Part shown: piece by piece, positions 17,177 to 63,532 of the stretch
How positions within the stretch are numbered: the stretch's first letter is position 1
How the letters are laid out: each line of letters starts with the position of its first letter
Assembly: GCA_963733395.1 (NCBI GenBank)
Contig: CAVTCZ010000009.1
Location: 166,245-230,244, forward strand
Length of the DNA: 64,000 nucleotides
Source: an uncultured Actinomycetota bacterium
Lineage (GTDB): Bacteria > Actinomycetota > Actinomycetes > S36-B12 > UBA10799
Reading direction: 5' to 3'
The notes under the pieces: generated by a model
Database searches by the model: none
The model's input: the letters and a program-made list of their open reading frames with translations, nothing else
Told to the model about the DNA's origin: nothing
Position numbers and translations under genes: made by a program

Positions 17177-18412
17177 TCAACGTTCCTCCTCCGAATGACC
17201 CATGTCGAGCAGGCTGGCCGGGCGCACAACCCCGCGCCCGAATCTGGCCACCGCCCGGTCCACCGCCGTCTCCGCCTCCCGCCACCCAGCGTCCGGTTCG
17301 TCGAGGGCGATCTGGTGACTTGCGTCGTGCGCCGGGCGCAACTTCTCGACCCGTACCCCCACCAGTCGTAGCCGGGCGCGCTGCAGGCCGAGCGCCTGGT
17401 AGAGGTCCGCGGCCACGGCGTAGATATCGCGGCCGACGTCGGTTGCCTCTGGCAATGTCTTGGACCGGGTCAGCGTGGTGAAGTCCGCGAACCGGACCTT
17501 GATCGACACCGTCCGGCCCACCCAGCCAGCCGCCCGAAGTCGGGCCGCCACCGCATCGGACAGCCCCAACAACTGCCGCGCGATCACCTCCTGATCGTCG
17601 ACATCACCGGCGAAGGTGTGCTCCGAACCGATGCTTCGATCGGGAGTGGCAGAACTGACCTGGCGGCTGTCCCGGCCCCAGGCGAGTTCGGCCAGGTGGT
17701 CCCCGGCCGCAGGTCCCAGCGCCCGCCGCAACACCGGCCGCGGCAGATGGGCGACATCGGCCACGGTGCGCACCCCGAGACTGTGCAGTTGCTCCTCCGT
17801 TCGCGGTCCGACGCCCCACAGGGCACCGACCGGCAGCGGGTGCAGGAAGGCCACGATCGAATCCGCCGGGATCAGCAGCATCCCATCCGGCTTGGCGTGG
17901 GCGCTGGCCACCTTGGCGACGAACTTGTTCGGTGCCCCGCCCACCGAGCAGGTGATCCCCTGCTCGTCGTGGACCCGCGCCCGCAGCAGTTCGCCGATGG
18001 CGGCGGGGGTGCCGAACTGCCGGATGGCCCCGGAGATGTCGAGGAACGCCTCATCGAGGGACAACGGCTCCACAGCCGTGGTGATGGAGCCGAAGATCGC
18101 CATCACCCCCTCGCTGACCCGCGCGTAGTGGCGATGGTCGGGCGCGATCACCGCCGCCTCAGGGCACAACCGACGGGCCCGTCCCATGGACATGGCCGCC
18201 CGGACTCCGAAGGCGCGGGCCTCGTAGGTGGCCGACAGCACCACGCCGCGGGAACCGGAACCGCCGACGATGACGGGCTTGCCCCGAAGCATGGGGCGGC
18301 TGAGCAACTCCACGGAGGCGTAGAACGCGTCCATGTCCACATGCAGGATCGTGCATGTGGAATCGTCGCGCGGCGCTGGGAAATCCAGCTTGCCGCTCTC
18401 GCGTCTGCTCAT
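17177..18412 (-). CDS. dinB: DNA polymerase IV (Y-family), catalytic residues intact
   Basis: 411-aa ORF with ILHVDMDAFYASVE and PLSLDEAFLDIS motifs (catalytic Asp/Glu present). Lies 15 bp downstream of the dnaE2-type gene. Confidence 0.9.
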   Translation of the reverse strand: MSRRESGKLDFPAPRDDSTCTILHVDMDAFYASVELLSRPMLRGKPVIVGGSGSRGVVLSATYEARAFGVRAAMSMGRARRLCPEAAVIAPDHRHYARVSEGVMAIFGSITTAVEPLSLDEAFLDISGAIRQFGTPAAIGELLRARVHDEQGITCSVGGAPNKFVAKVASAHAKPDGMLLIPADSIVAFLHPLPVGALWGVGPRTEEQLHSLGVRTVADVAHLPRPVLRRALGPAAGDHLAELAWGRDSRQVSSATPDRSIGSEHTFAGDVDDQEVIARQLLGLSDAVAARLRAAGWVGRTVSIKVRFADFTTLTRSKTLPEATDVGRDIYAVAADLYQALGLQRARLRLVGVRVEKLRPAHDASHQIALDEPDAGWREAETAVDRAVARFGRGVVRPASLLDMGHSEEER

Positions 18413-18427
18413 CGATGTCCTCCTCCC

Positions 18428-21400
18428 CTAGCCTGCACTGCCCGGACTGGAGTGCCACAGCTTCGGCGGCCGTTTCGACGACGATCCCGCCGGCCGGGTG
18501 TCCGCGTACGGCGACTGCCGGAACCCACTGGCATGGACCAGCACCCTGCGCACAGCCGGGTCCGAGGTACCGGTGTCCTGCGTCGGATCCTCCATCCGGT
18601 CCGGTCCGGCCAGCATGTCCACCGGCGTGTTGATGATCTCGTACACCCCGGCCACGCCCTTGCGTCTCCATGCCGCGTGCAGATCCGGCAGGGACCAGCA
18701 CCCGGTGGCCCGCACCGAGATCCCCCGTCGGCCGGTCCTGCGGATCACACCGGTGGCCAGCAACAGCCAGGAGTGGAACACCGTGTGGGCGTAGGGGCCC
18801 TGAGCGTCCTCGAAGAACGTCAGGTCGATCGGTCCGGTGGAGTCGTCCAGCGACAAGAAGATGACCCGTCGCCCGCTGCGGATCGGCGGGGTCTGGGTCG
18901 CCACCTTGATGCCGGCCACCAGGACCTGCGCCTGCGAGCGGTGGGCCAGCAGATCCTTGGACCGCACCACACCGAGTTCGGTGAACATCTGCTCGTAGAA
19001 CGAGATGGCATGCCGGGTCACATCGAGGCCGAGGATCTCCACTTCCGCCTCCACCCGATCGGCCGCGGTCATCTCGGGCAAGCCGCTGGGCGGCTCGGGC
19101 TCGGACAACGGCAGGACCAACTGGGCGGGGCCTGCGGCGTACACCTTCGGCGCCTGTGATTGCGCAGCCACCTGCTCGGCGAGCCCGGTACCGCCCACCT
19201 GTTGCTTGGCGTTGCGCCGGACCCGGCGCCGACCCCCGGACCGGTGAAGATCCGCGATCTGCAGCAGCAGGTCGCGGCGGGTCACGTGACCGATGCGGCG
19301 CGCCCCGGTGATGTCGTACATCGTGTCGAATCCGCCGGCGCGCACCAACCGCTCCACGACCGGCCGGGACACCGGCGTGCGCGACCAGAAATCGGCGAGG
19401 TCCACGAACGGCTGGGACACCTCGATCTGACGGATCTCCACGTCGTTGATCCCCTTCACATCCGCCAGCGACAGCCGGATGCCATAGGTGTCCGCCACCT
19501 TCTCCACCCGGTACTGTCCGCTGGATTTGTTCACGTCCAGCGGCAGCACCACAACCCCGCTGTTGCGGGCCTCGTCGAGGATCAACCGCTTCGGGTACAT
19601 CCCCGGGTCATGGGTGAGCACCCCGGCCAGGAACGCCGCCGGGTGGTGTCGCTTGAGCCAGGCGGAGTGGTAGGTCGGCAGCGCGAAGGCCGCGGCATGA
19701 GCCTTGCAGAACCCGAAACTGGCGAAGGCCCGCAACACCTCCCAGACCTTCTCGACGGTTGCCAGGTCGTAGCCCTTCTTCAGCGCCTGCGGGATGAACC
19801 AGGTCCGGACCTGGATCTGTCCATCCGGGGTGCCGAGTTGCCGGCGGACCTCGTCGGCCTCAGCCAGGGAACACCCGCTCATGACAGACACCAGCCGCAA
19901 CACCTGCTCGTGGAACACCACCACCCCATGGGTCTCCCGCAGCGCGGGTTCCAGATCGGGGTGCAGGTGCAGCGGCTCCCGCCAGCCGTGCCGGGCGGAC
20001 AGGAACGGCGTGATCATGTCGCTCTTCACCGGCCCGGGCCGGAACAGCGAGATGTCGATGATCAGGTCGTTGAAGTCGCGCGGGCCGAACTTGCCGATCA
20101 GCTCCCGCTGCCCCGGCGACTCGATCTGGAAGCAGCCGAGCGTCTTGGCCTTCTGAATGAGGTCGAAGGTGTCCTGATCGTCGAACGGCAGGTCGTCGAG
20201 GTCGACCTCGACGCCGTCCACCCGGCGCACCTCAGTCACCGCATGGGCCATCGCCGACTGCATGCGGATGCCCAGCACGTCGAGCTTCAGGAAACCCATC
20301 GCCTCCACGTCGTCCTTGTCGAAGTGACTCATCGGGAAGCCCATCCAGCTGGCCTCCACCGGGGTCCGGTCCAGCAACGAGGAGTCCGACAGCAGCACGC
20401 CGCAGGGGTGCAGGGCGATGTGCCGGGGCAGACCGTCGAGCGCCTCCACGAAGTGCAGGAAGCCGTCCAGCATCCCGCGGTCGGCGAGTTTGCCCACCAC
20501 CGAGGTGCGCACCTCGGGCAGTTCGGCCACCGCCGCCCGGGCATCGCGGGCACGGATGTGTGGGAAGGCCTTGGCGAAGTCGTCGATCTCGCCGGCCGGG
20601 AAGCCCAGTGCCGCCCCCACATCGCGAATCGCGTGTCGCACCTTGTAGGTGTCGCGCATGCTCACACAGGCGCTGCGGTGCGCCCCGAACCGTTCCACGA
20701 TCCGCCGGTAGATATCTGTGCGGCGCGCCGACTCGACGTCGATGTCGATGTCCGGCAGCGCCCGCCGCAGCGGGGACAGGAACCGCTCCATGAGCAGGTC
20801 GTGGCGGATGGGGTCCACCCCGGAGATGCCCAACAGGTAGTTCACGACACTGCCGGCCCCGGATCCCCGCGCGGCCACCCGCACCCGCATCGCGCGGATC
20901 AGGTCCACCACCTCCGCAACCGTGAGGAAGTATCCGGCGAAACCGAGGGTGGCGATGACACCGAGTTCGTCGTCGAGGCGCTGCCGGGCGGGCGCCACCT
21001 CCCGGGGCAGGAACCTCGTGTGCAACGCGGCCTCACAGCGGGCCCGCAGCAGGGCATCGGCGCGCACCGCCTCGACCCGGCGCTGGGCATGGCGGTGGCG
21101 GCGGGCGGCGTACCCGACCATCGCGGGTCCGGTGGGTTCGGCCGGCGGCCTGCCCGACAACAGGACATCGAGTTCCGGGACGTGGATGTCCCCGATGCCG
21201 AAATCCGCCACCGGGTCCAGCACACACTCCCCGGCCAGGTCGGCGGTCACCCCGAGCAGCCGGCCGGCCTCGGATCCCGCGACCTGTTCGGCGATGCCCT
21301 GCATATGACTGGCCGGCGCCAGGAAACCGCCGGAGTTCTCCCGGTCGAGATGCCGGGAGTCCAGCGGCACCAGCCGCCGGATGGCATCCAGCAGGTCCGC

Positions 21401-22102
21401 GGTCGACGCCTGCCGGGGATGGACGTACCGTGCCGCGTTGGTCAGCACCGCCGGGACGCCACGCTCGCGGGCGTAGGTCCACATCCGGCGCGCCATCGCG
21501 GTGGACAGGTCCGGTCCGGGCCGGTCCTCCCCGATCCCGCGGGGGGCGGTGCGGTGGTTCACGATCTCGAGGTACACCCGGTTGCCCGCCACCTGCCGCC
21601 AGCGGTCCAGCAACCGGTCGGCAAGGTCGAACCGGTGCCGACTGATGGCCCGACCCACCTGCGAGTCGGGACCCAGCAACACCCGCAGATCTCCGGGCAC
21701 CACGAACTCCTCGAGCAGACCCCAGTCCACCGTGGGGTTGCCTCGCTCCCCAGCGGTGTGGGCGGCCGATACCAGCCGGCTCAACGCCGACCAGCCCCTG
21801 CCGCCGGAAGCCAGCAGCACCATGCGCGGATGCCGCAGGTCACGCCAGGCGCCACCCCGGGTGGGGGTGCGCGCCGCTACCGGCGGGGCATCGGGGCGCT
21901 GGGCCAGGTCCGAGCCGAGGATGCCGTCGATGCCGTGTTCCATGCAGGCCTGCATGAACCGGACCGCGCCGTACAACCCGTCCCGGTCGGTCAGCGCGAT
22001 AGCCGGTTGGTCCAACTCCACGGCCCGCTGCACCACCTCCTGCGGGGCGCACACACCGTGCCGCAGGGAGTAGTAGGAGGCGACGTGGAGATGACTGAAC
22101 AT
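18428..22102 (-). CDS. dnaE2: Error-prone DNA polymerase III alpha-type subunit (DnaE2-like)
   Basis: 1224-aa ORF. The PHP N-terminus HLHVASYYSLRHG...LTDRDGLYGAVRF is DnaE2-like rather than DnaE1-like. It has the PDIDIDVE palm motif. It sits in an SOS-box-preceded operon with dinB. Confidence 0.85.
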   Translation of the reverse strand: MFSHLHVASYYSLRHGVCAPQEVVQRAVELDQPAIALTDRDGLYGAVRFMQACMEHGIDGILGSDLAQRPDAPPVAARTPTRGGAWRDLRHPRMVLLASGGRGWSALSRLVSAAHTAGERGNPTVDWGLLEEFVVPGDLRVLLGPDSQVGRAISRHRFDLADRLLDRWRQVAGNRVYLEIVNHRTAPRGIGEDRPGPDLSTAMARRMWTYARERGVPAVLTNAARYVHPRQASTADLLDAIRRLVPLDSRHLDRENSGGFLAPASHMQGIAEQVAGSEAGRLLGVTADLAGECVLDPVADFGIGDIHVPELDVLLSGRPPAEPTGPAMVGYAARRHRHAQRRVEAVRADALLRARCEAALHTRFLPREVAPARQRLDDELGVIATLGFAGYFLTVAEVVDLIRAMRVRVAARGSGAGSVVNYLLGISGVDPIRHDLLMERFLSPLRRALPDIDIDVESARRTDIYRRIVERFGAHRSACVSMRDTYKVRHAIRDVGAALGFPAGEIDDFAKAFPHIRARDARAAVAELPEVRTSVVGKLADRGMLDGFLHFVEALDGLPRHIALHPCGVLLSDSSLLDRTPVEASWMGFPMSHFDKDDVEAMGFLKLDVLGIRMQSAMAHAVTEVRRVDGVEVDLDDLPFDDQDTFDLIQKAKTLGCFQIESPGQRELIGKFGPRDFNDLIIDISLFRPGPVKSDMITPFLSARHGWREPLHLHPDLEPALRETHGVVVFHEQVLRLVSVMSGCSLAEADEVRRQLGTPDGQIQVRTWFIPQALKKGYDLATVEKVWEVLRAFASFGFCKAHAAAFALPTYHSAWLKRHHPAAFLAGVLTHDPGMYPKRLILDEARNSGVVVLPLDVNKSSGQYRVEKVADTYGIRLSLADVKGINDVEIRQIEVSQPFVDLADFWSRTPVSRPVVERLVRAGGFDTMYDITGARRIGHVTRRDLLLQIADLHRSGGRRRVRRNAKQQVGGTGLAEQVAAQSQAPKVYAAGPAQLVLPLSEPEPPSGLPEMTAADRVEAEVEILGLDVTRHAISFYEQMFTELGVVRSKDLLAHRSQAQVLVAGIKVATQTPPIRSGRRVIFLSLDDSTGPIDLTFFEDAQGPYAHTVFHSWLLLATGVIRRTGRRGISVRATGCWSLPDLHAAWRRKGVAGVYEIINTPVDMLAGPDRMEDPTQDTGTSDPAVRRVLVHASGFRQSPYADTRPAGSSSKRPPKLWHSSPGSAG

Positions 22103-22105
22103 CGA

Positions 22106-22507
22106 CTATCCCGCAGTCGACCAGGAGGGGATCGGCAGTCCCACCCCGAGGATCGCGGCGATCTGCTCGAGGAACGCCTCAGCATCGCGCACGAGGTCGT
22201 CGGCCTGCCGCTGGGTCACATGTTCCCGGCCGATCTCCACGAAGATGCGGCGACGGCCGATCGCGTCGAAGTAGGCACACCACTCCCCCAACTCGGGGGC
22301 GATCGTCGGCACCATCTGCCAGACGCTGCGGATGCGCGACGACCGGGTCGGCTTGGCCCGCGTGGCCAGCAACGCCGCGCCCGCCCGCAGCGCCGCCACG
22401 TGCGCGGCCACGTAGCGGTCGGCGGGAGCGGTCGCCTGATAGGCGTCGTCGAGGGCGATCAGCGCGGTGCGCAGCAGATCTTTGCCGGCATGGGTCAGAG
22501 CAGCCAT
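22106..22507 (-). CDS. Small all-helical HEPN-like protein (resembles proteins annotated as SAV_6107-family HEPN)
   Basis: 133-aa ORF ending 3 bp before the dnaE2 start. It has an R-x4-H motif (RYVAAH, aa 31-36) and Ala/Leu-rich helices. The family assignment is from memory of similar annotations, not from a search. Confidence 0.6.
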   Translation of the reverse strand: MAALTHAGKDLLRTALIALDDAYQATAPADRYVAAHVAALRAGAALLATRAKPTRSSRIRSVWQMVPTIAPELGEWCAYFDAIGRRRIFVEIGREHVTQRQADDLVRDAEAFLEQIAAILGVGLPIPSWSTAG

Positions 22508-22519
22508 TGCAGTGTCCTC

Positions 22520-22801
22520 TCAGTCGAAGGTCCGCAGCAGGTACCACTGCCCCGCTGCCGGGTCGAAGCTCAAGTCGTAGACGCCACGCGCCGTGCATCG
22601 ACCGGCGGATGCCTCCACCCGCCAGGTCTGCAGGTCGCACCCGGTGGGGGTCGCACTGACGTCCTTCCACCACACCGCGGACTTGTCCCACTGCTGCAAC
22701 ACGTGATCCACCCGGTACAACCGGTCACGCCAGATGAACTGCTCGGGGGACCCGCCCCCGGCACATTTGACGTCGACGGCCCGGTCATAGGAACGACTCA
22801 T
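22520..22801 (-). CDS. Small Trp-rich protein (DUF6504-like), first gene of the damage-inducible operon
   Basis: ATG 22799-22801 is preceded by GGGAGGTG. MSRSYDRAVDVKC...FIWRDRLYRVDHVLQQW...VWWKDV...TWRVEASAG...GVYDLSFDPAAGQWYLLRTFD. The track start (GTG 22861) lies upstream of the predicted promoter, so I trimmed it. Confidence 0.65.
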   Translation of the reverse strand: MSRSYDRAVDVKCAGGGSPEQFIWRDRLYRVDHVLQQWDKSAVWWKDVSATPTGCDLQTWRVEASAGRCTARGVYDLSFDPAAGQWYLLRTFD

Positions 22802-22825
22802 GAAGCACCTCCCGTTCGTCGTGGA

Positions 22826-22841
22826 TCGAACTTTTGTTCGA
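22826..22841. promoter_or_regulatory. LexA (SOS) box, perfect actinobacterial consensus
   Basis: TCGAACTTTTGTTCGA matches TCGAAC-N4-GTTCGA exactly. It lies 25 nt upstream of the ATG at 22801 and overlaps the predicted -10 element. Confidence 0.85.
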
Positions 22842-22860
22842 TTACAGTCGAACACTGACA
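22839..22860 (-). promoter_or_regulatory. RecA-NDp / PafBC-type DNA-damage promoter motif
   Basis: The minus strand reads gTGTCAGTG-ttcgactg-TAATCG, versus the mycobacterial motif tTGTCRgtg-N8-TAnnnT. All positions match except the last T. Confidence 0.6.
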
Positions 22861-22881
22861 CAGGGGTACGTCAAGAGATTT

Positions 22882-22897
22882 TCGAACATATGTTCGC
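22882..22897. promoter_or_regulatory. Second LexA box (one mismatch)
   Basis: TCGAACATATGTTCGC, located in the divergent region between the mutasome-like operon and the MFS gene. Confidence 0.75.
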
Positions 22898-22988
22898 TGT
22901 GGATATCGGTCGGACCGGCCATCCCGCCAGCCCACCCATCCGCCCAGGCCCGGCGGTACCGTGCCAATGAGCGAGCGGAGGACCAGCC

Positions 22989-24308
22989 ATGGCTCAACAG
23001 GCGCCCACGCAGTCCGAGCACCATCTACGGCCCACCGCCCTGGGCACCCGGACCTGGCTCGGCATCGTCATCATCGGCCTCGTCGGCCAGATCGCCTGGA
23101 CCGTCGAGAACCTCTACCTCAACGTCTTCGTCTACGACACGATCACCGACGACCCCACCGTCATCGCCGTGATGGTCGCCCTCTCGGCGATCTCCGCGAC
23201 CACCGCCACGTTCTTCATCGGGCCACTGTCGGACCGGATCGGCAAGCGCCGCATGTTCATCGTCGGGGGCTACGTCCTGTGGGGCGTGTCCACGATGCTG
23301 TTCGGCTTCATCACCGTCGATGCCCTGGCAGCGTTCGTCCCCGCCGCCAGTGTCGCGGCCGCCACCGCTGCGGTCGTCATCCTGCTCGACTGCCTGATGA
23401 GCTTCCTGGGGGCCGGCGCGAACGACGCCTCGTTCAACGCCTGGGTCACCGACATCACCTCCCCCGACAACCGCGGACGGGTCGAATCGGTACTGGCGAT
23501 GCTGCCGCTGATGTCGATGCTGCTGGTCTTCGGCGGCCTCGACGGACTGACCAAGAGCGGCGACTGGCAGGTGTTCTTCATCGTGGTCGGGGCGCTCATG
23601 ATCGTCGCCGGCCTCCTGGCCCTGCTGCTGATCCACGACGCACCCAACGAGCCGACCCAACACGACAGCCTGTGGCGCTCCATCGTGCACGGGCTGCGGC
23701 CCGATGCCGTGCGCGCCAACCCCCGGCTCTACTGGACCCTGGTGGCGTTCGCCATCCTCGGCATCTCGACCCAGGTCTTCCTCCCCTACCTGATCATCTA
23801 CGTGCAGCGCTACCTGCAGATCGACGCCTACGCCGTGGTGCTGGCGGCGGTACTGACCGGCGCCGCCGTCGTCAGCGTCCTCGGCGGCCGGATCATCGAC
23901 CGGGTCGGCAAGGTCGCCTTCATGCTGCCCGCCGCGGGTATCTACCTGGTCGGGCTGTTGCTCATGGTGTTCGCCCGCGGCCTCTTGCCGGTCATCCTCG
24001 CGGGACTGGTCATGATGTCCGGGTTCATGCTGACCATGGCCGCGATCGGCGCCGCCATCCGCGACTACTCCCCCGTCGACCGGGTCGGCATGGTGCAGGG
24101 TCTGCGCATGATCGCCATGGTCCTGATCCCCATGGTCATCGGCCCGTTCATCGGAGCAGCCGTGATCCGCAACGCCGACGAGTACTACGAGGACCTCGGA
24201 CAGCTCAAGCAGGTACCGACCCCCGGGATCTTCGTGGCCGCCGCGGTCGTCATCCTCATGATCCTCATACCCATCCGGGCCCTGCGCCGACGGGCGGACA
24301 CCAGGTGA
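22989..24308 (+). CDS. MFS transporter, glycoside-pentoside-hexuronide (GPH)-like
   Basis: 439-aa polytopic ORF with GGAGGA 7 nt upstream of the ATG. Contains GPLSDRIGKRR and forms a GTGA overlap with the downstream GH2 gene. Confidence 0.8.
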   Translation: MAQQAPTQSEHHLRPTALGTRTWLGIVIIGLVGQIAWTVENLYLNVFVYDTITDDPTVIAVMVALSAISATTATFFIGPLSDRIGKRRMFIVGGYVLWGVSTMLFGFITVDALAAFVPAASVAAATAAVVILLDCLMSFLGAGANDASFNAWVTDITSPDNRGRVESVLAMLPLMSMLLVFGGLDGLTKSGDWQVFFIVVGALMIVAGLLALLLIHDAPNEPTQHDSLWRSIVHGLRPDAVRANPRLYWTLVAFAILGISTQVFLPYLIIYVQRYLQIDAYAVVLAAVLTGAAVVSVLGGRIIDRVGKVAFMLPAAGIYLVGLLLMVFARGLLPVILAGLVMMSGFMLTMAAIGAAIRDYSPVDRVGMVQGLRMIAMVLIPMVIGPFIGAAVIRNADEYYEDLGQLKQVPTPGIFVAAAVVILMILIPIRALRRRADTR

Positions 24309-59749: not shown

Positions 59750-59794
59750 CTGAGGTCTCCTCACGTCGTGTGCCGACCGTAGAGAGACCCTCTG

Positions 59795-59828
59795 ACAAAA
59801 CCGTCGCTCCGGATTCGAACGGGGAGTC
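59795..59828 (+). repeat. Family-C 34-bp direct repeat, copy 1
   Basis: ACAAAACCGTCGCTCCGGATTCGAACGGGGAGTC differs from copy 2 (60304..60337) at 4 of 34 positions. Confidence 0.85.
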
Positions 59829-61810: not shown

Positions 61811-63532
61811 ATGTCAGGACCTTCTCCTAGCGTCGGGAACGTGTCCGTCGCCCCTTGGCCGTTGCCGCGAGGTCCAGCCCAGCTGAATCTCGACTTCGAC
61901 GGCACCGCCCTGGCCGAGACCACGTTCTGCGTCGTCGATCTCGAAACCACCGGTGGCAGCCCCACCGACGGGCGGATCACCGAGATCGGGGCCGTCAAGG
62001 TCCGCGCCGGCGAGGTCCTCGGGGAGTTCCAGACGTTCGTCGATCCCGGGCGACCGATTCCACCGTTCATCACCGTGCTCACCGGCATCACCGGTCGCAT
62101 GGTGGCCGCCGCCCCGTCCGAGGACGTGGCAGTCCCCCTGCTGCTCGACTTCCTCGCCGGAAGTGTCTTCGTGGCCCACAACGCCCCCTACGACTCGGGC
62201 TTCCTGCGGGCCGCATGCGAGCGGCTCGGGATCGCGTGGCCGAACCCGCAGGTGATCGACACGGCCCGGCTCGCCCGTTCTTCGCTGGGTCGCGACGAGG
62301 TGGCCAACCACAAGCTGGCGACTCTCGCGGCCTTCTTCCGGGCCGAGGTCACACCCACCCACCGCGCACTCGATGATGCCCGCGCCACCGTCGACGTGCT
62401 GCACGGGCTGCTCGAGCGGCTCGGCGCCGTGGGCGTGTTGACCCTGGAGGAGTTGTCGGCATCGATGCGCAAAGTGCCGCATCAGCGCCGGGACAAGCGG
62501 CATCTGGCCGACCGCCTCCCGGAGGCCGCCGGGGTCTACACGTTCCGGGACTCCGACGACCGCCCGCTCTACGTGGGGGTCTCCGCTGATATCCGCCGAC
62601 GGGTGCGGTCCTACTTCACCAGCGCGGAGCAACGCCCCCGGATGACGGAGATGGTCGGCATCGCTGCCTCCGTCACGGCGATCGTCTGCGCGACGGATCT
62701 CGAGGCGAGGGTGCGGGAACTACGCCTGATCGCCGAATGGAAACCCCCCTACAACCGGCGTTCCCGGCATCCGGAGAAGAACGTCTGGCTGAAGTTGACC
62801 GACGAGGCCTTTCCGCGGCTGTCTGTGGTGCGGGCGGTGGCCGATGACGAGTCCCGCGGTTCGGCGTACCTGGGCCCGTTCCGTTCCCGCTCCGATGCGC
62901 AGGAGGCGATCGCCGCCCTCACGGAGGCGACGGGGTTGCGGGCTTGCACCCAGAAGCTGCGGCCCGGAATCAGCGCCCCCGATTGTGTGCTCGGGCAGAT
63001 CGGCAAGTGCCCGGCGCCCTGCTCGGGCCGGTTGACCCCGGAGCAGTACGCGCCGTCGGTGGCACAGGTCCGGCGCGCAGCGCTCGGCGATCCCGGCCCG
63101 GTGGACAGCGCCTTGCGCCAGCGGATGGCTGCCTTGTCGGAGCAACAGCGGTTCGAGCAGGCCGCCACCTGGCGCAACCGCCTGGAGGCAGCCCGCCACG
63201 GCATCGAGTCGGCGACACAGTTGCGGGCCTTCGGCCAGATCCCGGAGTTGGTCGCCGCCCGCAGCCGTTCCGGAGGCTGGGACATCCATGTCATCCGCCA
63301 CGGCCGGATGGCCGCGGCGGCGTTCTGCCCGGCCAACGCCGATGCCCGGGCGGTGGTGGAGACCGTGGTGCTGGGCGCGGAGCAGGTGCTGCCGCCTCCC
63401 CCGCCCACAACATCCGCGTTGATCGCCGAGAGCCGGATGCTCATGCGGTGGCTCGAGTCGGCCCGGCTGGTGCGGATCGAAGGGTCCTGGACCCTGCCAC
63501 TGCCGGGTCTCAGGCCCGCAACTCCCGGGTGA
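61811..63532 (+). CDS. DEDDh 3'-5' exonuclease domain fused to a GIY-YIG nuclease domain (Rv2191-like)
   Basis: Exo motifs VVDLETTG, FVAHNAPYDSGFL and HRALDDA, then GVYTFRDSDDRPLYVGVSADIRRRVRSYF (GIY-YIG). The start is uncertain (ATG 61811 or the track start 61793). Confidence 0.8.
   Translation: MSGPSPSVGNVSVAPWPLPRGPAQLNLDFDGTALAETTFCVVDLETTGGSPTDGRITEIGAVKVRAGEVLGEFQTFVDPGRPIPPFITVLTGITGRMVAAAPSEDVAVPLLLDFLAGSVFVAHNAPYDSGFLRAACERLGIAWPNPQVIDTARLARSSLGRDEVANHKLATLAAFFRAEVTPTHRALDDARATVDVLHGLLERLGAVGVLTLEELSASMRKVPHQRRDKRHLADRLPEAAGVYTFRDSDDRPLYVGVSADIRRRVRSYFTSAEQRPRMTEMVGIAASVTAIVCATDLEARVRELRLIAEWKPPYNRRSRHPEKNVWLKLTDEAFPRLSVVRAVADDESRGSAYLGPFRSRSDAQEAIAALTEATGLRACTQKLRPGISAPDCVLGQIGKCPAPCSGRLTPEQYAPSVAQVRRAALGDPGPVDSALRQRMAALSEQQRFEQAATWRNRLEAARHGIESATQLRAFGQIPELVAARSRSGGWDIHVIRHGRMAAAAFCPANADARAVVETVVLGAEQVLPPPPPTTSALIAESRMLMRWLESARLVRIEGSWTLPLPGLRPATPG

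What the first reader, a model, noticed from the sequence alone, without database searches (positions are those of the whole stretch)
22826..22897. Layered SOS promoter: RecA-NDp/PafBC-type motif whose -10 overlaps a perfect LexA box, with a second LexA box 56 bp away
Seen directly on the minus strand: gTGTCAGTG-N8-TAATCG (22860..22839), compared with the mycobacterial RecA-independent damage promoter tTGTCRgtg-N8-TAnnnT. TCGAACTTTTGTTCGA (22826..22841) overlaps its -10 by 3 nt. TCGAACATATGTTCGC (22882..22897) lies nearer the divergent MFS-GH2 operon. This geometry suggests dual control, with activation through the PafBC-type route and repression by LexA. It also argues that the real start of the first gene is ATG 22801, not the track start GTG 22861. 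The second box could place a sugar transporter/GH2 pair under SOS control, which would be unusual.
Basis: partly seen in the sequence, partly recalled or inferred. Interest (0 to 1): 0.6.

Follow-up and report, generated by a model that had tools for sequence, protein, structure and literature searches.

The report
Double LexA-box promoter of dnaE2-dinB operon
This is the DNA-damage (SOS) switch of an operon for two error-prone DNA polymerases, with two LexA repressor sites flanking the promoter; the proposed second (PafBC-type) activator signal is most likely a look-alike produced by an ordinary extended -10 promoter, so the region is a new example of a known kind of control.

Summary
The two LexA boxes (22826-22841 perfect, 22882-22897 one mismatch) are real. 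They are the only such matches in 64 kb and are conserved with 56-57 bp spacing in same-genus genomes. They precede a DUF6504 / HEPN_SAV_6107 / DnaE2 / DinB operon whose true start is ATG 22801.

The PafBC/RecA-NDp reading is not supported in that register. This genome has its own large regulon of that type (TGTC-N12-TAnnnT at recA, uvrA, uvrB, radA, polA and others), with an essentially invariant final T and fixed spacing. The window's TGTCAGTG-N8-TAATCG lacks that T and scores -2.2 bits on the genome's own matrix. The TGTC-plus-TA pairing occurs in only 1 of 12 genus genomes, whereas the uvrB promoter element is conserved.

The conserved bases (TG.[C/G]A.TGT) fit an extended -10 promoter, TGnCAnnnT, a class 27-fold enriched at leaderless starts here. 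The predicted start is near 22845, with LexA boxes at +5..+20 and -52..-37.

The distal box belongs to this operon, not to the MFS-GH2 pair. Other families of the order do carry a canonical PafBC-type promoter plus LexA box on this operon, so this genus looks rewired. No transcript data could be obtained.

The parts
22882..22897 (.). Distal LexA (SOS) box TCGAACATATGTTCGC, one mismatch; predicted position -52..-37
   Evidence: GAAC/GTTC halves invariant in 8 of 8 relatives. Retained in L011, which has no divergent MFS gene.
22867..22876 (-). Invariant element TCTTGACGTA (TTGACG = 22874-22869). Its sequence is that of a -35 hexamer, but it lies only 11 nt from the extended -10 hexamer and 17 nt from TCGACT. 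Role unresolved.
   Evidence: Invariant. TTGAC(G) also precedes the operon in distant clades.
22852..22860 (-). Proposed extended -10 promoter TGT+CAGTGT (TGnCAnnnT).
   Evidence: TG, A(-11) and TGT invariant, the n and the -12 base variable, in 8 of 8 relatives. TGnCAnnnT occurs 32 times at the leaderless distance against 1.2 background, and TGnCAGnnT 19 against 0.5.
22846..22851 (-). Alternative -10 candidate TCGACT, 17 nt after TTGACG and preceded by TGT
   Evidence: TCnnCT conserved, but TCnnnT is not used as a -10 at leaderless starts in this genome (10 against 23 background; TGnTCnnnT 3 against 2.2).
22845..22845 (-). Predicted transcription start (G), plus or minus 2 nt
   Evidence: Inferred. 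Leaderless promoters of this genome have 6 nt between the hexamer and +1.
22839..22844 (-).
   Evidence: Not conserved: GAAGTC, GTATCG or TTATCG in relatives.
22826..22841 (.). Proximal LexA box TCGAACTTTTGTTCGA (perfect); predicted position +5..+20
   Evidence: One of 5 perfect boxes in the genome. Conserved.
22808..22813 (-). Shine-Dalgarno GGGAGG, 6 nt before ATG 22801
22520..22801 (-). DUF6504 protein gene (93 aa), first gene of the operon; true start ATG 22801
   Evidence: Pfam PF20114, E 1.2e-15. ATGAGT invariant.
22106..22507 (-). HEPN_SAV_6107 protein gene (133 aa)
   Evidence: Pfam PF18726, E 6.5e-30.
18428..22102 (-). DnaE-family polymerase alpha subunit (1224 aa), DnaE2-like
   Evidence: NCBIfam and Pfam. 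Scores are below the equivalog cut-offs for both DnaE1 and error-prone DnaE2.
17177..18412 (-). DNA polymerase IV (DinB, 411 aa)
   Evidence: NF003015, 395.6 bits against a cut-off of 367.
22957..22962 (+). Conserved -10 (TACCGT) of the divergent MFS gene, 60 nt from the distal LexA box
   Evidence: TACCGT/TACGGT conserved about 25-30 nt before the MFS start in the four relatives examined (L005, L007, L008, L010).
22989..24308 (+). Divergent MFS transporter gene, followed by a GH2 glycosidase gene to 26059

Best explanation
The 127-bp region is the SOS promoter of a four-gene translesion operon: DUF6504, HEPN_SAV_6107, a DnaE2-like polymerase and DinB. Two LexA dimers bind operators on either side of the core promoter. 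The distal operator is at about -52..-37 and the perfect proximal one at about +5..+20. Together they occlude RNA polymerase until RecA-stimulated LexA self-cleavage after DNA damage.

The core promoter is most likely an extended -10 promoter, TGT-CAGTGT (22860-22852), starting transcription near 22845. This gives a 44-nt leader with an SD, and translation starts at ATG 22801. The apparent RecA-NDp/PafBC motif is these same extended -10 bases plus a fortuitous TA. In this genus the operon appears to be under LexA control only.

Shown: the sequence elements, their conservation, the gene content, and the promoter rules of this genome. Inferred: LexA binding, the transcription start, and the absence of PafBC input.
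For: Gene content.

LexA boxes: the only 2 in the window, 0.12 expected. There are 5 perfect boxes in the genome. The halves are invariant, with 56-57 bp spacing, in 8 of 8 relatives. The core layout is found in 12 of 14 genomes of the genus and 0 of 47 outside it. LexA and RecA are encoded, each with its own box.

Extended -10: the conservation pattern is T G n [C/G] A n T G T. At the leaderless distance, CAnnnT occurs 81 times against 26 background, and 32 of those 81 carry an upstream TG, against 5 of 220 for TAnnnT. TGnCAnnnT is 27-fold enriched at that distance.

Against the PafBC register.

Precedent: S. venezuelae dnaE2-dinP is core SOS regulon with two LexA-bound boxes (PMC9380542).
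Against: The -12 base is C or G rather than T. The invariant TTGACG lies 11 nt from the hexamer, so it cannot serve as its -35, and it remains unexplained. It sits at the optimal 17 nt from another conserved hexamer (TCGACT), so the start may instead be about 6 nt downstream. The simple sigma-70 scan finds no canonical promoter in the region. Conservation was assessed only within one genus.
Confidence: 0.68

Rival explanations
1. First reader's model. A PafBC-type promoter (TGTCAGTG -26 element, 8 nt, -10 TAATCG, start near 22832) is activated by a PafBC-like factor and gated by the overlapping LexA box.
For: The TGTC core and the exact 12-nt distance to a TA are present. TGTCRGTG-N8-TA is rare by chance in the window, 0.05 expected. 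The genome has a TGTC-type damage regulon. The same operon in other families carries a canonical stacked promoter. Mutasome genes are co-regulated by PafBC and SOS in mycobacteria (PMC8682763).
Against: The -7 base is G, while the local regulon has T in 28 of 32 and the rest is at chance level. The PWM score is -2.2 bits. TGTC changes to TGGC or TGCG in 8 of 12 genus genomes, and the TA is absent or shifted in the others, so only this genome has both. In this genome TGGC shows no enrichment as a -26 core. The true uvrB element is conserved over the same distances.
Confidence: 0.07
2. LexA-only control, but the core promoter is TTGACG (-35) / 17 nt / TGT-TCGACT, starting near 22839.
For: TTGACG, the 17-nt spacing, TGT and TCnnCT are all invariant. 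In other clades TTGAC(G) lies 17-19 nt from the -10. Another perfect-LexA promoter in this genome reads TTGACA-N17-(TGT)TCGAAT (C19:704477).
Against: C at -11. TCnnnT hexamers are not used at leaderless starts in this genome.
Confidence: 0.2
3. A PafBC-like factor acts in a different register, with TGACGTACCCC (22873-22863) as a variant -26 element exactly 12 nt upstream of CAGTGT. This would give dual control after all.
For: TTGACGTACCCCTGT differs at one base from the TTGTCGTACCCCTGT of the DUF222-gene promoters. The PWM score is 9.6 bits, against 10.8 for the weakest training site. The element is invariant.
Against: TGAC is not enriched as a core: TGACNNACC-N7-TANNNT occurs 2 times in 614 elements, against 28 in 471 for TGTC. 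ACC is replaced by GGT or GGC in three genus genomes.
Confidence: 0.08
4. The distal LexA box represses the divergent MFS-GH2 genes.
For: It lies between the two divergent units, 92 nt before the MFS ATG.
Against: The MFS gene has its own conserved -10, 60 nt (window), about 75 nt (L007/L008) or more than 100 nt (L005) from the box. The box keeps a fixed 7-nt distance to TTGACG and persists in L011, which has no MFS neighbour.
Confidence: 0.07

Closest known systems
Streptomyces venezuelae dnaE2-dinP (vnz_06640-06635) SOS promoter (Stratton et al. 2022, PMC9380542)
   Same: An error-prone DnaE2 plus Pol IV operon that belongs to the core LexA regulon, with more than one TCGAAC-N4-GTTCGA-type box bound by LexA.
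   Different: Here the boxes are 56 bp apart and flank the core promoter. The operon starts with DUF6504 and HEPN genes. Nothing has been tested experimentally.
Mycobacterial promoters under dual LexA and PafBC (RecA-NDp) control: recA P1/P2, imuA'-imuB, dnaE2 (PMC8682763, PMC8223512)
   Same: The same two damage pathways exist in this genome. recA here also has a distal LexA promoter and a proximal TGTC-type promoter.
   Different: The window's operon promoter fails the defining -10 and conservation tests for the PafBC-type element.
Stacked TTGAC(G)-TGTC-N12-TAnnnT-(8-10 nt)-LexA box promoter of the same DUF6504-dnaE2 operon in other families of the order and in L014, L023, L028, L031
   Same: Orthologous operon, a TTGACG element, and a LexA box just downstream of the promoter.
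   Different: The genus of the window (0 of 14 genomes) lacks the TGTC/TAnnnT pair. Its LexA box is 11 nt closer, and it has a second, upstream box.
Multi-operator SOS promoters of E. coli (lexA with two boxes, recN with three); from general knowledge
   Same: Several LexA operators on one promoter, giving tight repression and late induction.
   Different: A different operator consensus and a different spacing.

Membership tests
Actinobacterial LexA operator (SOS box) | Palindrome TCGAAC-N4-GTTCGA | tested here: met
   Perfect at 22826-22841, one mismatch at 22882-22897.
Actinobacterial LexA operator (SOS box) | Lies on the promoter of a damage-response gene and is conserved in orthologous promoters | tested here: met
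   The operon encodes DnaE2-like and DinB polymerases. Half-sites are invariant in 8 of 8 relatives.
Actinobacterial LexA operator (SOS box) | The genome encodes LexA and RecA, with boxes at lexA and recA | tested here: met
   TIGR00498 at 250 bits and TIGR02012 at 573 bits. Boxes at C9:121991 and C9:132008.
Actinobacterial LexA operator (SOS box) | LexA binding and damage induction | not testable with these tools
RecA-NDp / PafBC-dependent promoter | -26 element with core TGTC(R)G | tested here: inconclusive
   Present in the window (TGTCAG). However, the core is TGGC or TGCG in 8 of 12 genus genomes, and the local extended consensus ..ACCC is not matched.
RecA-NDp / PafBC-dependent promoter | -10 hexamer TAnnnT exactly 12 nt after TGTC | tested here: not met
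   The hexamer is TAATCG, with G at -7. In the local regulon, TANNNT occurs 28 times against 2, 1 and 1 for A, C and G. The N7 spacing occurs 28 times against 5 and 4 for the neighbouring spacings.
RecA-NDp / PafBC-dependent promoter | Scores like the genome's own regulon members | tested here: not met
   -2.2 bits against a training range of 10.8-28.6. 18,436 genome positions score as well.
RecA-NDp / PafBC-dependent promoter | Both elements co-conserved in orthologous promoters | tested here: not met
   Only 1 of 12 genus genomes has TGTC plus TA. The control uvrB promoter keeps TGTC-N12-TAGCGT in 6 of 7.
RecA-NDp / PafBC-dependent promoter | PafB/PafC regulator encoded | tested here: inconclusive
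   No pafBC between pafA and tatA. The only WYL genes are a divergent tandem pair on C19. One of them has PafC as its best PDB match, E 2.8e-6. The other has no significant match, and neither matches an NCBIfam model.
Extended -10 (TGn) sigma-A promoter | TG one base upstream of a hexamer with A at -11 and T at -7 | tested here: met
   TGT-CAGTGT at 22860-22852. TG, A and T are invariant in 8 of 8 relatives.
Extended -10 (TGn) sigma-A promoter | The class is used by this organism | tested here: met
   TGnCAnnnT occurs 32 times at the leaderless distance against 1.2 background.
Extended -10 (TGn) sigma-A promoter | Transcription start 6-8 nt downstream | not testable with these tools
   No transcript data.

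The most novel reading that the evidence does not exclude
In this one genus, the order-wide stacked PafBC-type/LexA promoter of the DUF6504-dnaE2-dinB operon was rewired. The -26/-10 activator module was lost. Its TGTCAGTG-like bases were re-used as an extended -10 (TGnCAnnnT). The LexA box moved 11 nt closer, and a second LexA operator was gained upstream. This would turn an activator-plus-repressor gate into a double-operator, repressor-only switch for error-prone polymerases.
Probability: 0.3. Interest if true: 0.4.

Novelty: new member of a known kind. Interest (0 to 1): 0.25.

Why it matters
The region sets when two error-prone polymerases are made, and so when damage-induced mutagenesis can occur, in an uncultured actinobacterial genus. 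The comparison has practical value for annotation. A match to the mycobacterial RecA-NDp consensus is not enough to call PafBC control. Each genome's own regulon gives sharper rules: here TGTC-N12-TAnnnT with a strict final T. Extended -10 promoters of the form TGTCAG..T can mimic the -26 element. The genus-level difference from the stacked promoter found elsewhere in the order is a small, testable case of regulatory rewiring between the two actinobacterial damage pathways.

Tried and rejected
1. A strict mycobacterial motif scan (TGTCRGTG-N8-TANNNT) gave only 1 hit in the genome and wrongly suggested there is no regulon. Relaxing it to TGTC-N12-TANNNT revealed the regulon.

2. Searching with the GC-rich -26 extension alone (TGTCSGRNCC) is non-specific, with 259 hits that are mostly coding.

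3. A third LexA box around GTTCGA 22853-22848 was rejected, because the left half matches 1 of 6 bases (by eye).

4. TGAC as a variant -26 core shows no enrichment.

5. The canonical sigma-70 scan found 0 promoters in 22700-23050.

6. The attempt to use TTGAC-containing promoters to decide between the two -10 candidates failed, because there are too few such promoters in this genome.

7. Rfam found no family in 22400-23100, nor in the long leaders of distant relatives.

9. The terminator-like hit at 22814-22831 uses a GAAC arm of the LexA box; I judged it not a terminator.

Full report
**Observation.** The minus strand between 22897 and 22801 reads as follows. GCGAACATATGTTCGA is the distal LexA box (22897-22882). 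AAATCTC follows, then TTGACG (22874-22869) and TACCCCTG. Next come TGTCAGTG (22860-22853), TTCGACTG and TAATCG (22844-22839). The last three bases of TAATCG begin TCGAACAAAAGTTCGA, the proximal box (22841-22826). An SD GGGAGG (22813-22808) and ATG 22801 follow. The two LexA boxes are the only matches with at most 1 mismatch in the 64-kb window. The expectation is 0.12, and 0 of 100 shuffles reached two. The proximal box is one of five perfect boxes in the 3.69-Mb genome.

**Surroundings.** The minus-strand unit holds four genes. They are a DUF6504 protein (93 aa from ATG 22801), a HEPN_SAV_6107 protein, a 1224-aa DnaE-family polymerase and DNA polymerase IV. The polymerase scores below the equivalog cut-offs for both DnaE1 and error-prone DnaE2. 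The divergent unit is an MFS transporter gene followed by a GH2 glycosidase gene. The genome has 68.5% G+C in 22 contigs. By the record titles of its nearest relatives it belongs to an uncultured actinobacterial genus variously labelled Nanopelagicales or Micrococcales. It encodes LexA and RecA, each with its own box.

**Is there a PafBC-type regulon here, and what are its rules?** The strict mycobacterial pattern hits only once. TGTCNG-N10-TANNNT occurs 30 times against about 11 expected, and TGTCN[ACT]-N10-TANNNT adds 36 more. Many sites lie 2-9 nt before start codons, which indicates leaderless transcripts. The genes include uvrA, uvrB, radA, polA, a UvrD/PcrA-like helicase, a PRK07883-type DEDD exonuclease, RecB-like nucleases, a GyrB-family protein, dnaE1 and recA.
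- Only the core TGTC is enriched: 337-436 per 100,000 six-mers, against 25-60 for most of its single substitutions, including TGGC at 25.
- With the local extension (TGTCNNACC), the -10 ends in T 28 times, against 2, 1 and 1 times for A, C and G.
- The spacing is fixed: 28 hits at N7 against 5 and 4 at the neighbouring spacings.
- recA has a distal LexA promoter and a proximal TGTC promoter, as in mycobacteria (PMC8682763).

The regulator is unclear. pafA is present, but no pafBC lies between it and tatA. The only WYL genes are a divergent tandem pair on another contig.

**Testing the window's site against those rules.** TGTCAGTGTTCGACTGTAATCG has the TGTC core and the right distance to a TA. 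It has G at -7 and none of the ACC extension.
- On a matrix built from 45 local sites it scores -2.2 bits, against a training range of 10.8-28.6. In the genome, 18,436 positions score as well.
- The relaxed form it satisfies (TGTCNG-N10-TANNNN) is not enriched: 79 observed against 71 expected.
- In seven close relatives, with DUF6504 proteins 61-78% identical, the whole promoter is strongly conserved. TGTC, however, is kept only in L006 and L009, which have GAAGTC where the -10 should be. The sequences that keep a TA have TGGC, or have the TA shifted by one base.
- Among 12 genomes of the genus, TGTC occurs in 4, TGGC in 6 and TGCG in 2. Only the window's genome combines TGTC with a TA at the right distance.
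- As a positive control, the uvrB promoter of the same genomes keeps TGTC-N12-TAGCGT-7 nt-ATG in 6 of 7, with one GGTC, while the spacer between the elements varies freely.

The PafBC-type reading therefore fails a defining feature and fails the conservation test.

**What the conserved bases are instead.** The invariant columns between TTGACG and the proximal box are T G.. A. T G T T C.. C T. G. Read as TGn + [C/G]A[G/A]TGT, this is an extended -10 promoter. The TG, the -11 A and the -7 T are invariant, and the n is free. I measured which hexamers this genome uses by counting them at the leaderless distance, 6 nt before start codons.
- TAnnnT: 220 against 10 background.
- CAnnnT: 81 against 26.
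- TAnnnG: 27 against 14.
- TCnnnT: 10 against 23.
- Of the 81 CAnnnT sites, 32 carry TG one base upstream, against 5 of 220 for TAnnnT.
- TGnCAnnnT is 27-fold enriched at that distance, and TGnCAGnnT 38-fold.

TGTCAGTGT (22860-22852) is a typical member of this class. The RecA-NDp resemblance thus arises because TG-T-CAGTG happens to spell TGTCAGTG. The predicted start is G 22845. That places the proximal box at +5..+20 and the distal box at -52..-37, so both lie inside the polymerase footprint.

One point stays open. The invariant TCTTGACGTA lies only 11 nt from this hexamer, but 17 nt from another conserved hexamer (TGT-TCGACT). That hexamer has C at -11, and its class is not used elsewhere in the genome. 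I rank it second, and only 5' end mapping can decide. A third register (TGACGTACCCC as a variant -26 element, 9.6 bits) is not supported, because TGAC is not enriched as a core.

The start codon ATG 22801 is supported. It has a good SD, ATGAGT is invariant, the upstream DNA differs between relatives by insertions such as +22 nt in L005, and the reading frame offers no alternative start between 22845 and 22801.

SOS control of MFS-GH2 is not supported. The distal box keeps a fixed 7-nt distance to TTGACG. It persists in L011, where the upstream neighbour is a co-directional gene and no MFS gene is present. The MFS gene has its own conserved -10 (TACCGT at 22957-22962, TACGGT in relatives), 60 nt to more than 100 nt from the box.

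**Comparison with what is known.** In S. venezuelae the dnaE2-dinP operon is a core LexA target with two LexA-bound boxes (PMC9380542). In mycobacteria the mutasome genes are co-regulated by SOS and PafBC, and the PafBC motif is a 22-nt sequence with a conserved 5' TGTCGG (PMC8682763; PMC8223512). In other families of the same order, TGTC-N12-TAnnnT followed after 8-10 nt by TCGAAC-N4-GTTC occurs in 15 of 61 genomes (11 of 27 genera), with no hits to the reversed control pattern. All six loci inspected lie directly upstream of DUF6504-dnaE2, preceded by TTGAC(G) 1-3 nt before TGTC in five of the six. L014, L023, L028 and L031 show the same layout. None of the 14 genomes of the window's genus has it, while 12 of 14 have the layout described here and 0 of 47 outside the genus do. 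Here the activator module seems to have been replaced, and a second LexA operator added.

**Verdict.** This is a real, conserved, double-operator SOS promoter of an error-prone polymerase operon, and a new member of a known kind. The layered PafBC reading is not supported at the given coordinates. All functional statements are inferences from sequence.

Noticed in passing
whole genome; in the window at 61812-61833 (+) and 59776-59797 (-): The genome has a large TGTC-N12-TAnnnT regulon (local consensus TGTC-s-n-ACCC-N6-TA[G/C]nnT). Most sites lie 2-9 nt before start codons, which indicates leaderless transcripts. Members include uvrA, uvrB, radA, polA, dnaE1, recA, a UvrD-like helicase, RecB-like nucleases, a GyrB-family protein, and the DEDD exonuclease gene that starts about 61842 in the window.
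   Followed up: yes
G000 C4:21693-23201 and C19:167347-169100: pafA, the proteasome genes, tatA and tatC are present, but no pafBC lies between pafA and tatA. The only WYL-domain genes are a divergent tandem pair elsewhere. One has PafC as its best PDB match (E 2.8e-6), and neither matches any NCBIfam model. This pair is the candidate regulator of the TGTC regulon.
   Followed up: partly
G000 C13:135089, C19:616080, C1:70319, C5:299910 and other copies: A repeated DUF222/HNH (13E12-like) gene family carries stacked promoters in which a LexA-like box (TCGTACCCCTGTTCTA or TCGTACTAACGTTCGA) sits between, or over, the TGTC element and the -10. These are the true layered promoters of this genome.
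   Followed up: partly
whole genome: There is a distinct class of extended -10 promoters, TGnCAnnnT, with 32 leaderless genes. TAnnnT promoters almost never carry the upstream TG (5 of 220).
   Followed up: yes
G000 C9:131950-132023 (outside the window): recA has a distal LexA-box promoter (the box abuts the -10 TATGGT) and a proximal TGTC-type promoter (TGTCGCACCTCCTGGGTAGCGT). This mirrors the mycobacterial recA P2/P1 arrangement.
   Followed up: partly
L020-L032, about 150-200 nt between the LexA box and the DUF6504 start: A long, strongly conserved 5' leader (GGAGTTTCGCGGCCCGTCCGATGAGGCGGATCGC...GGCTTCGACCCC...) lies in front of the operon in a distant clade. It has no Rfam match and is absent from the window's genus, whose leader is 44 nt.
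   Followed up: partly
L020, L021, L025-L027, L029, L030 and L032: In this clade no HEPN_SAV_6107 gene is detected, and DnaE2 starts shortly after DUF6504 (tblastn). The HEPN gene is therefore not a constant member of the operon.
   Followed up: no
window 18428-22102: The DnaE-family polymerase scores below the NCBIfam cut-offs for both DnaE1 (632 against 1002 bits) and error-prone DnaE2 (622 against 939 bits). No imuA'/imuB-like genes lie in the operon, and DinB sits downstream instead.
   Followed up: no
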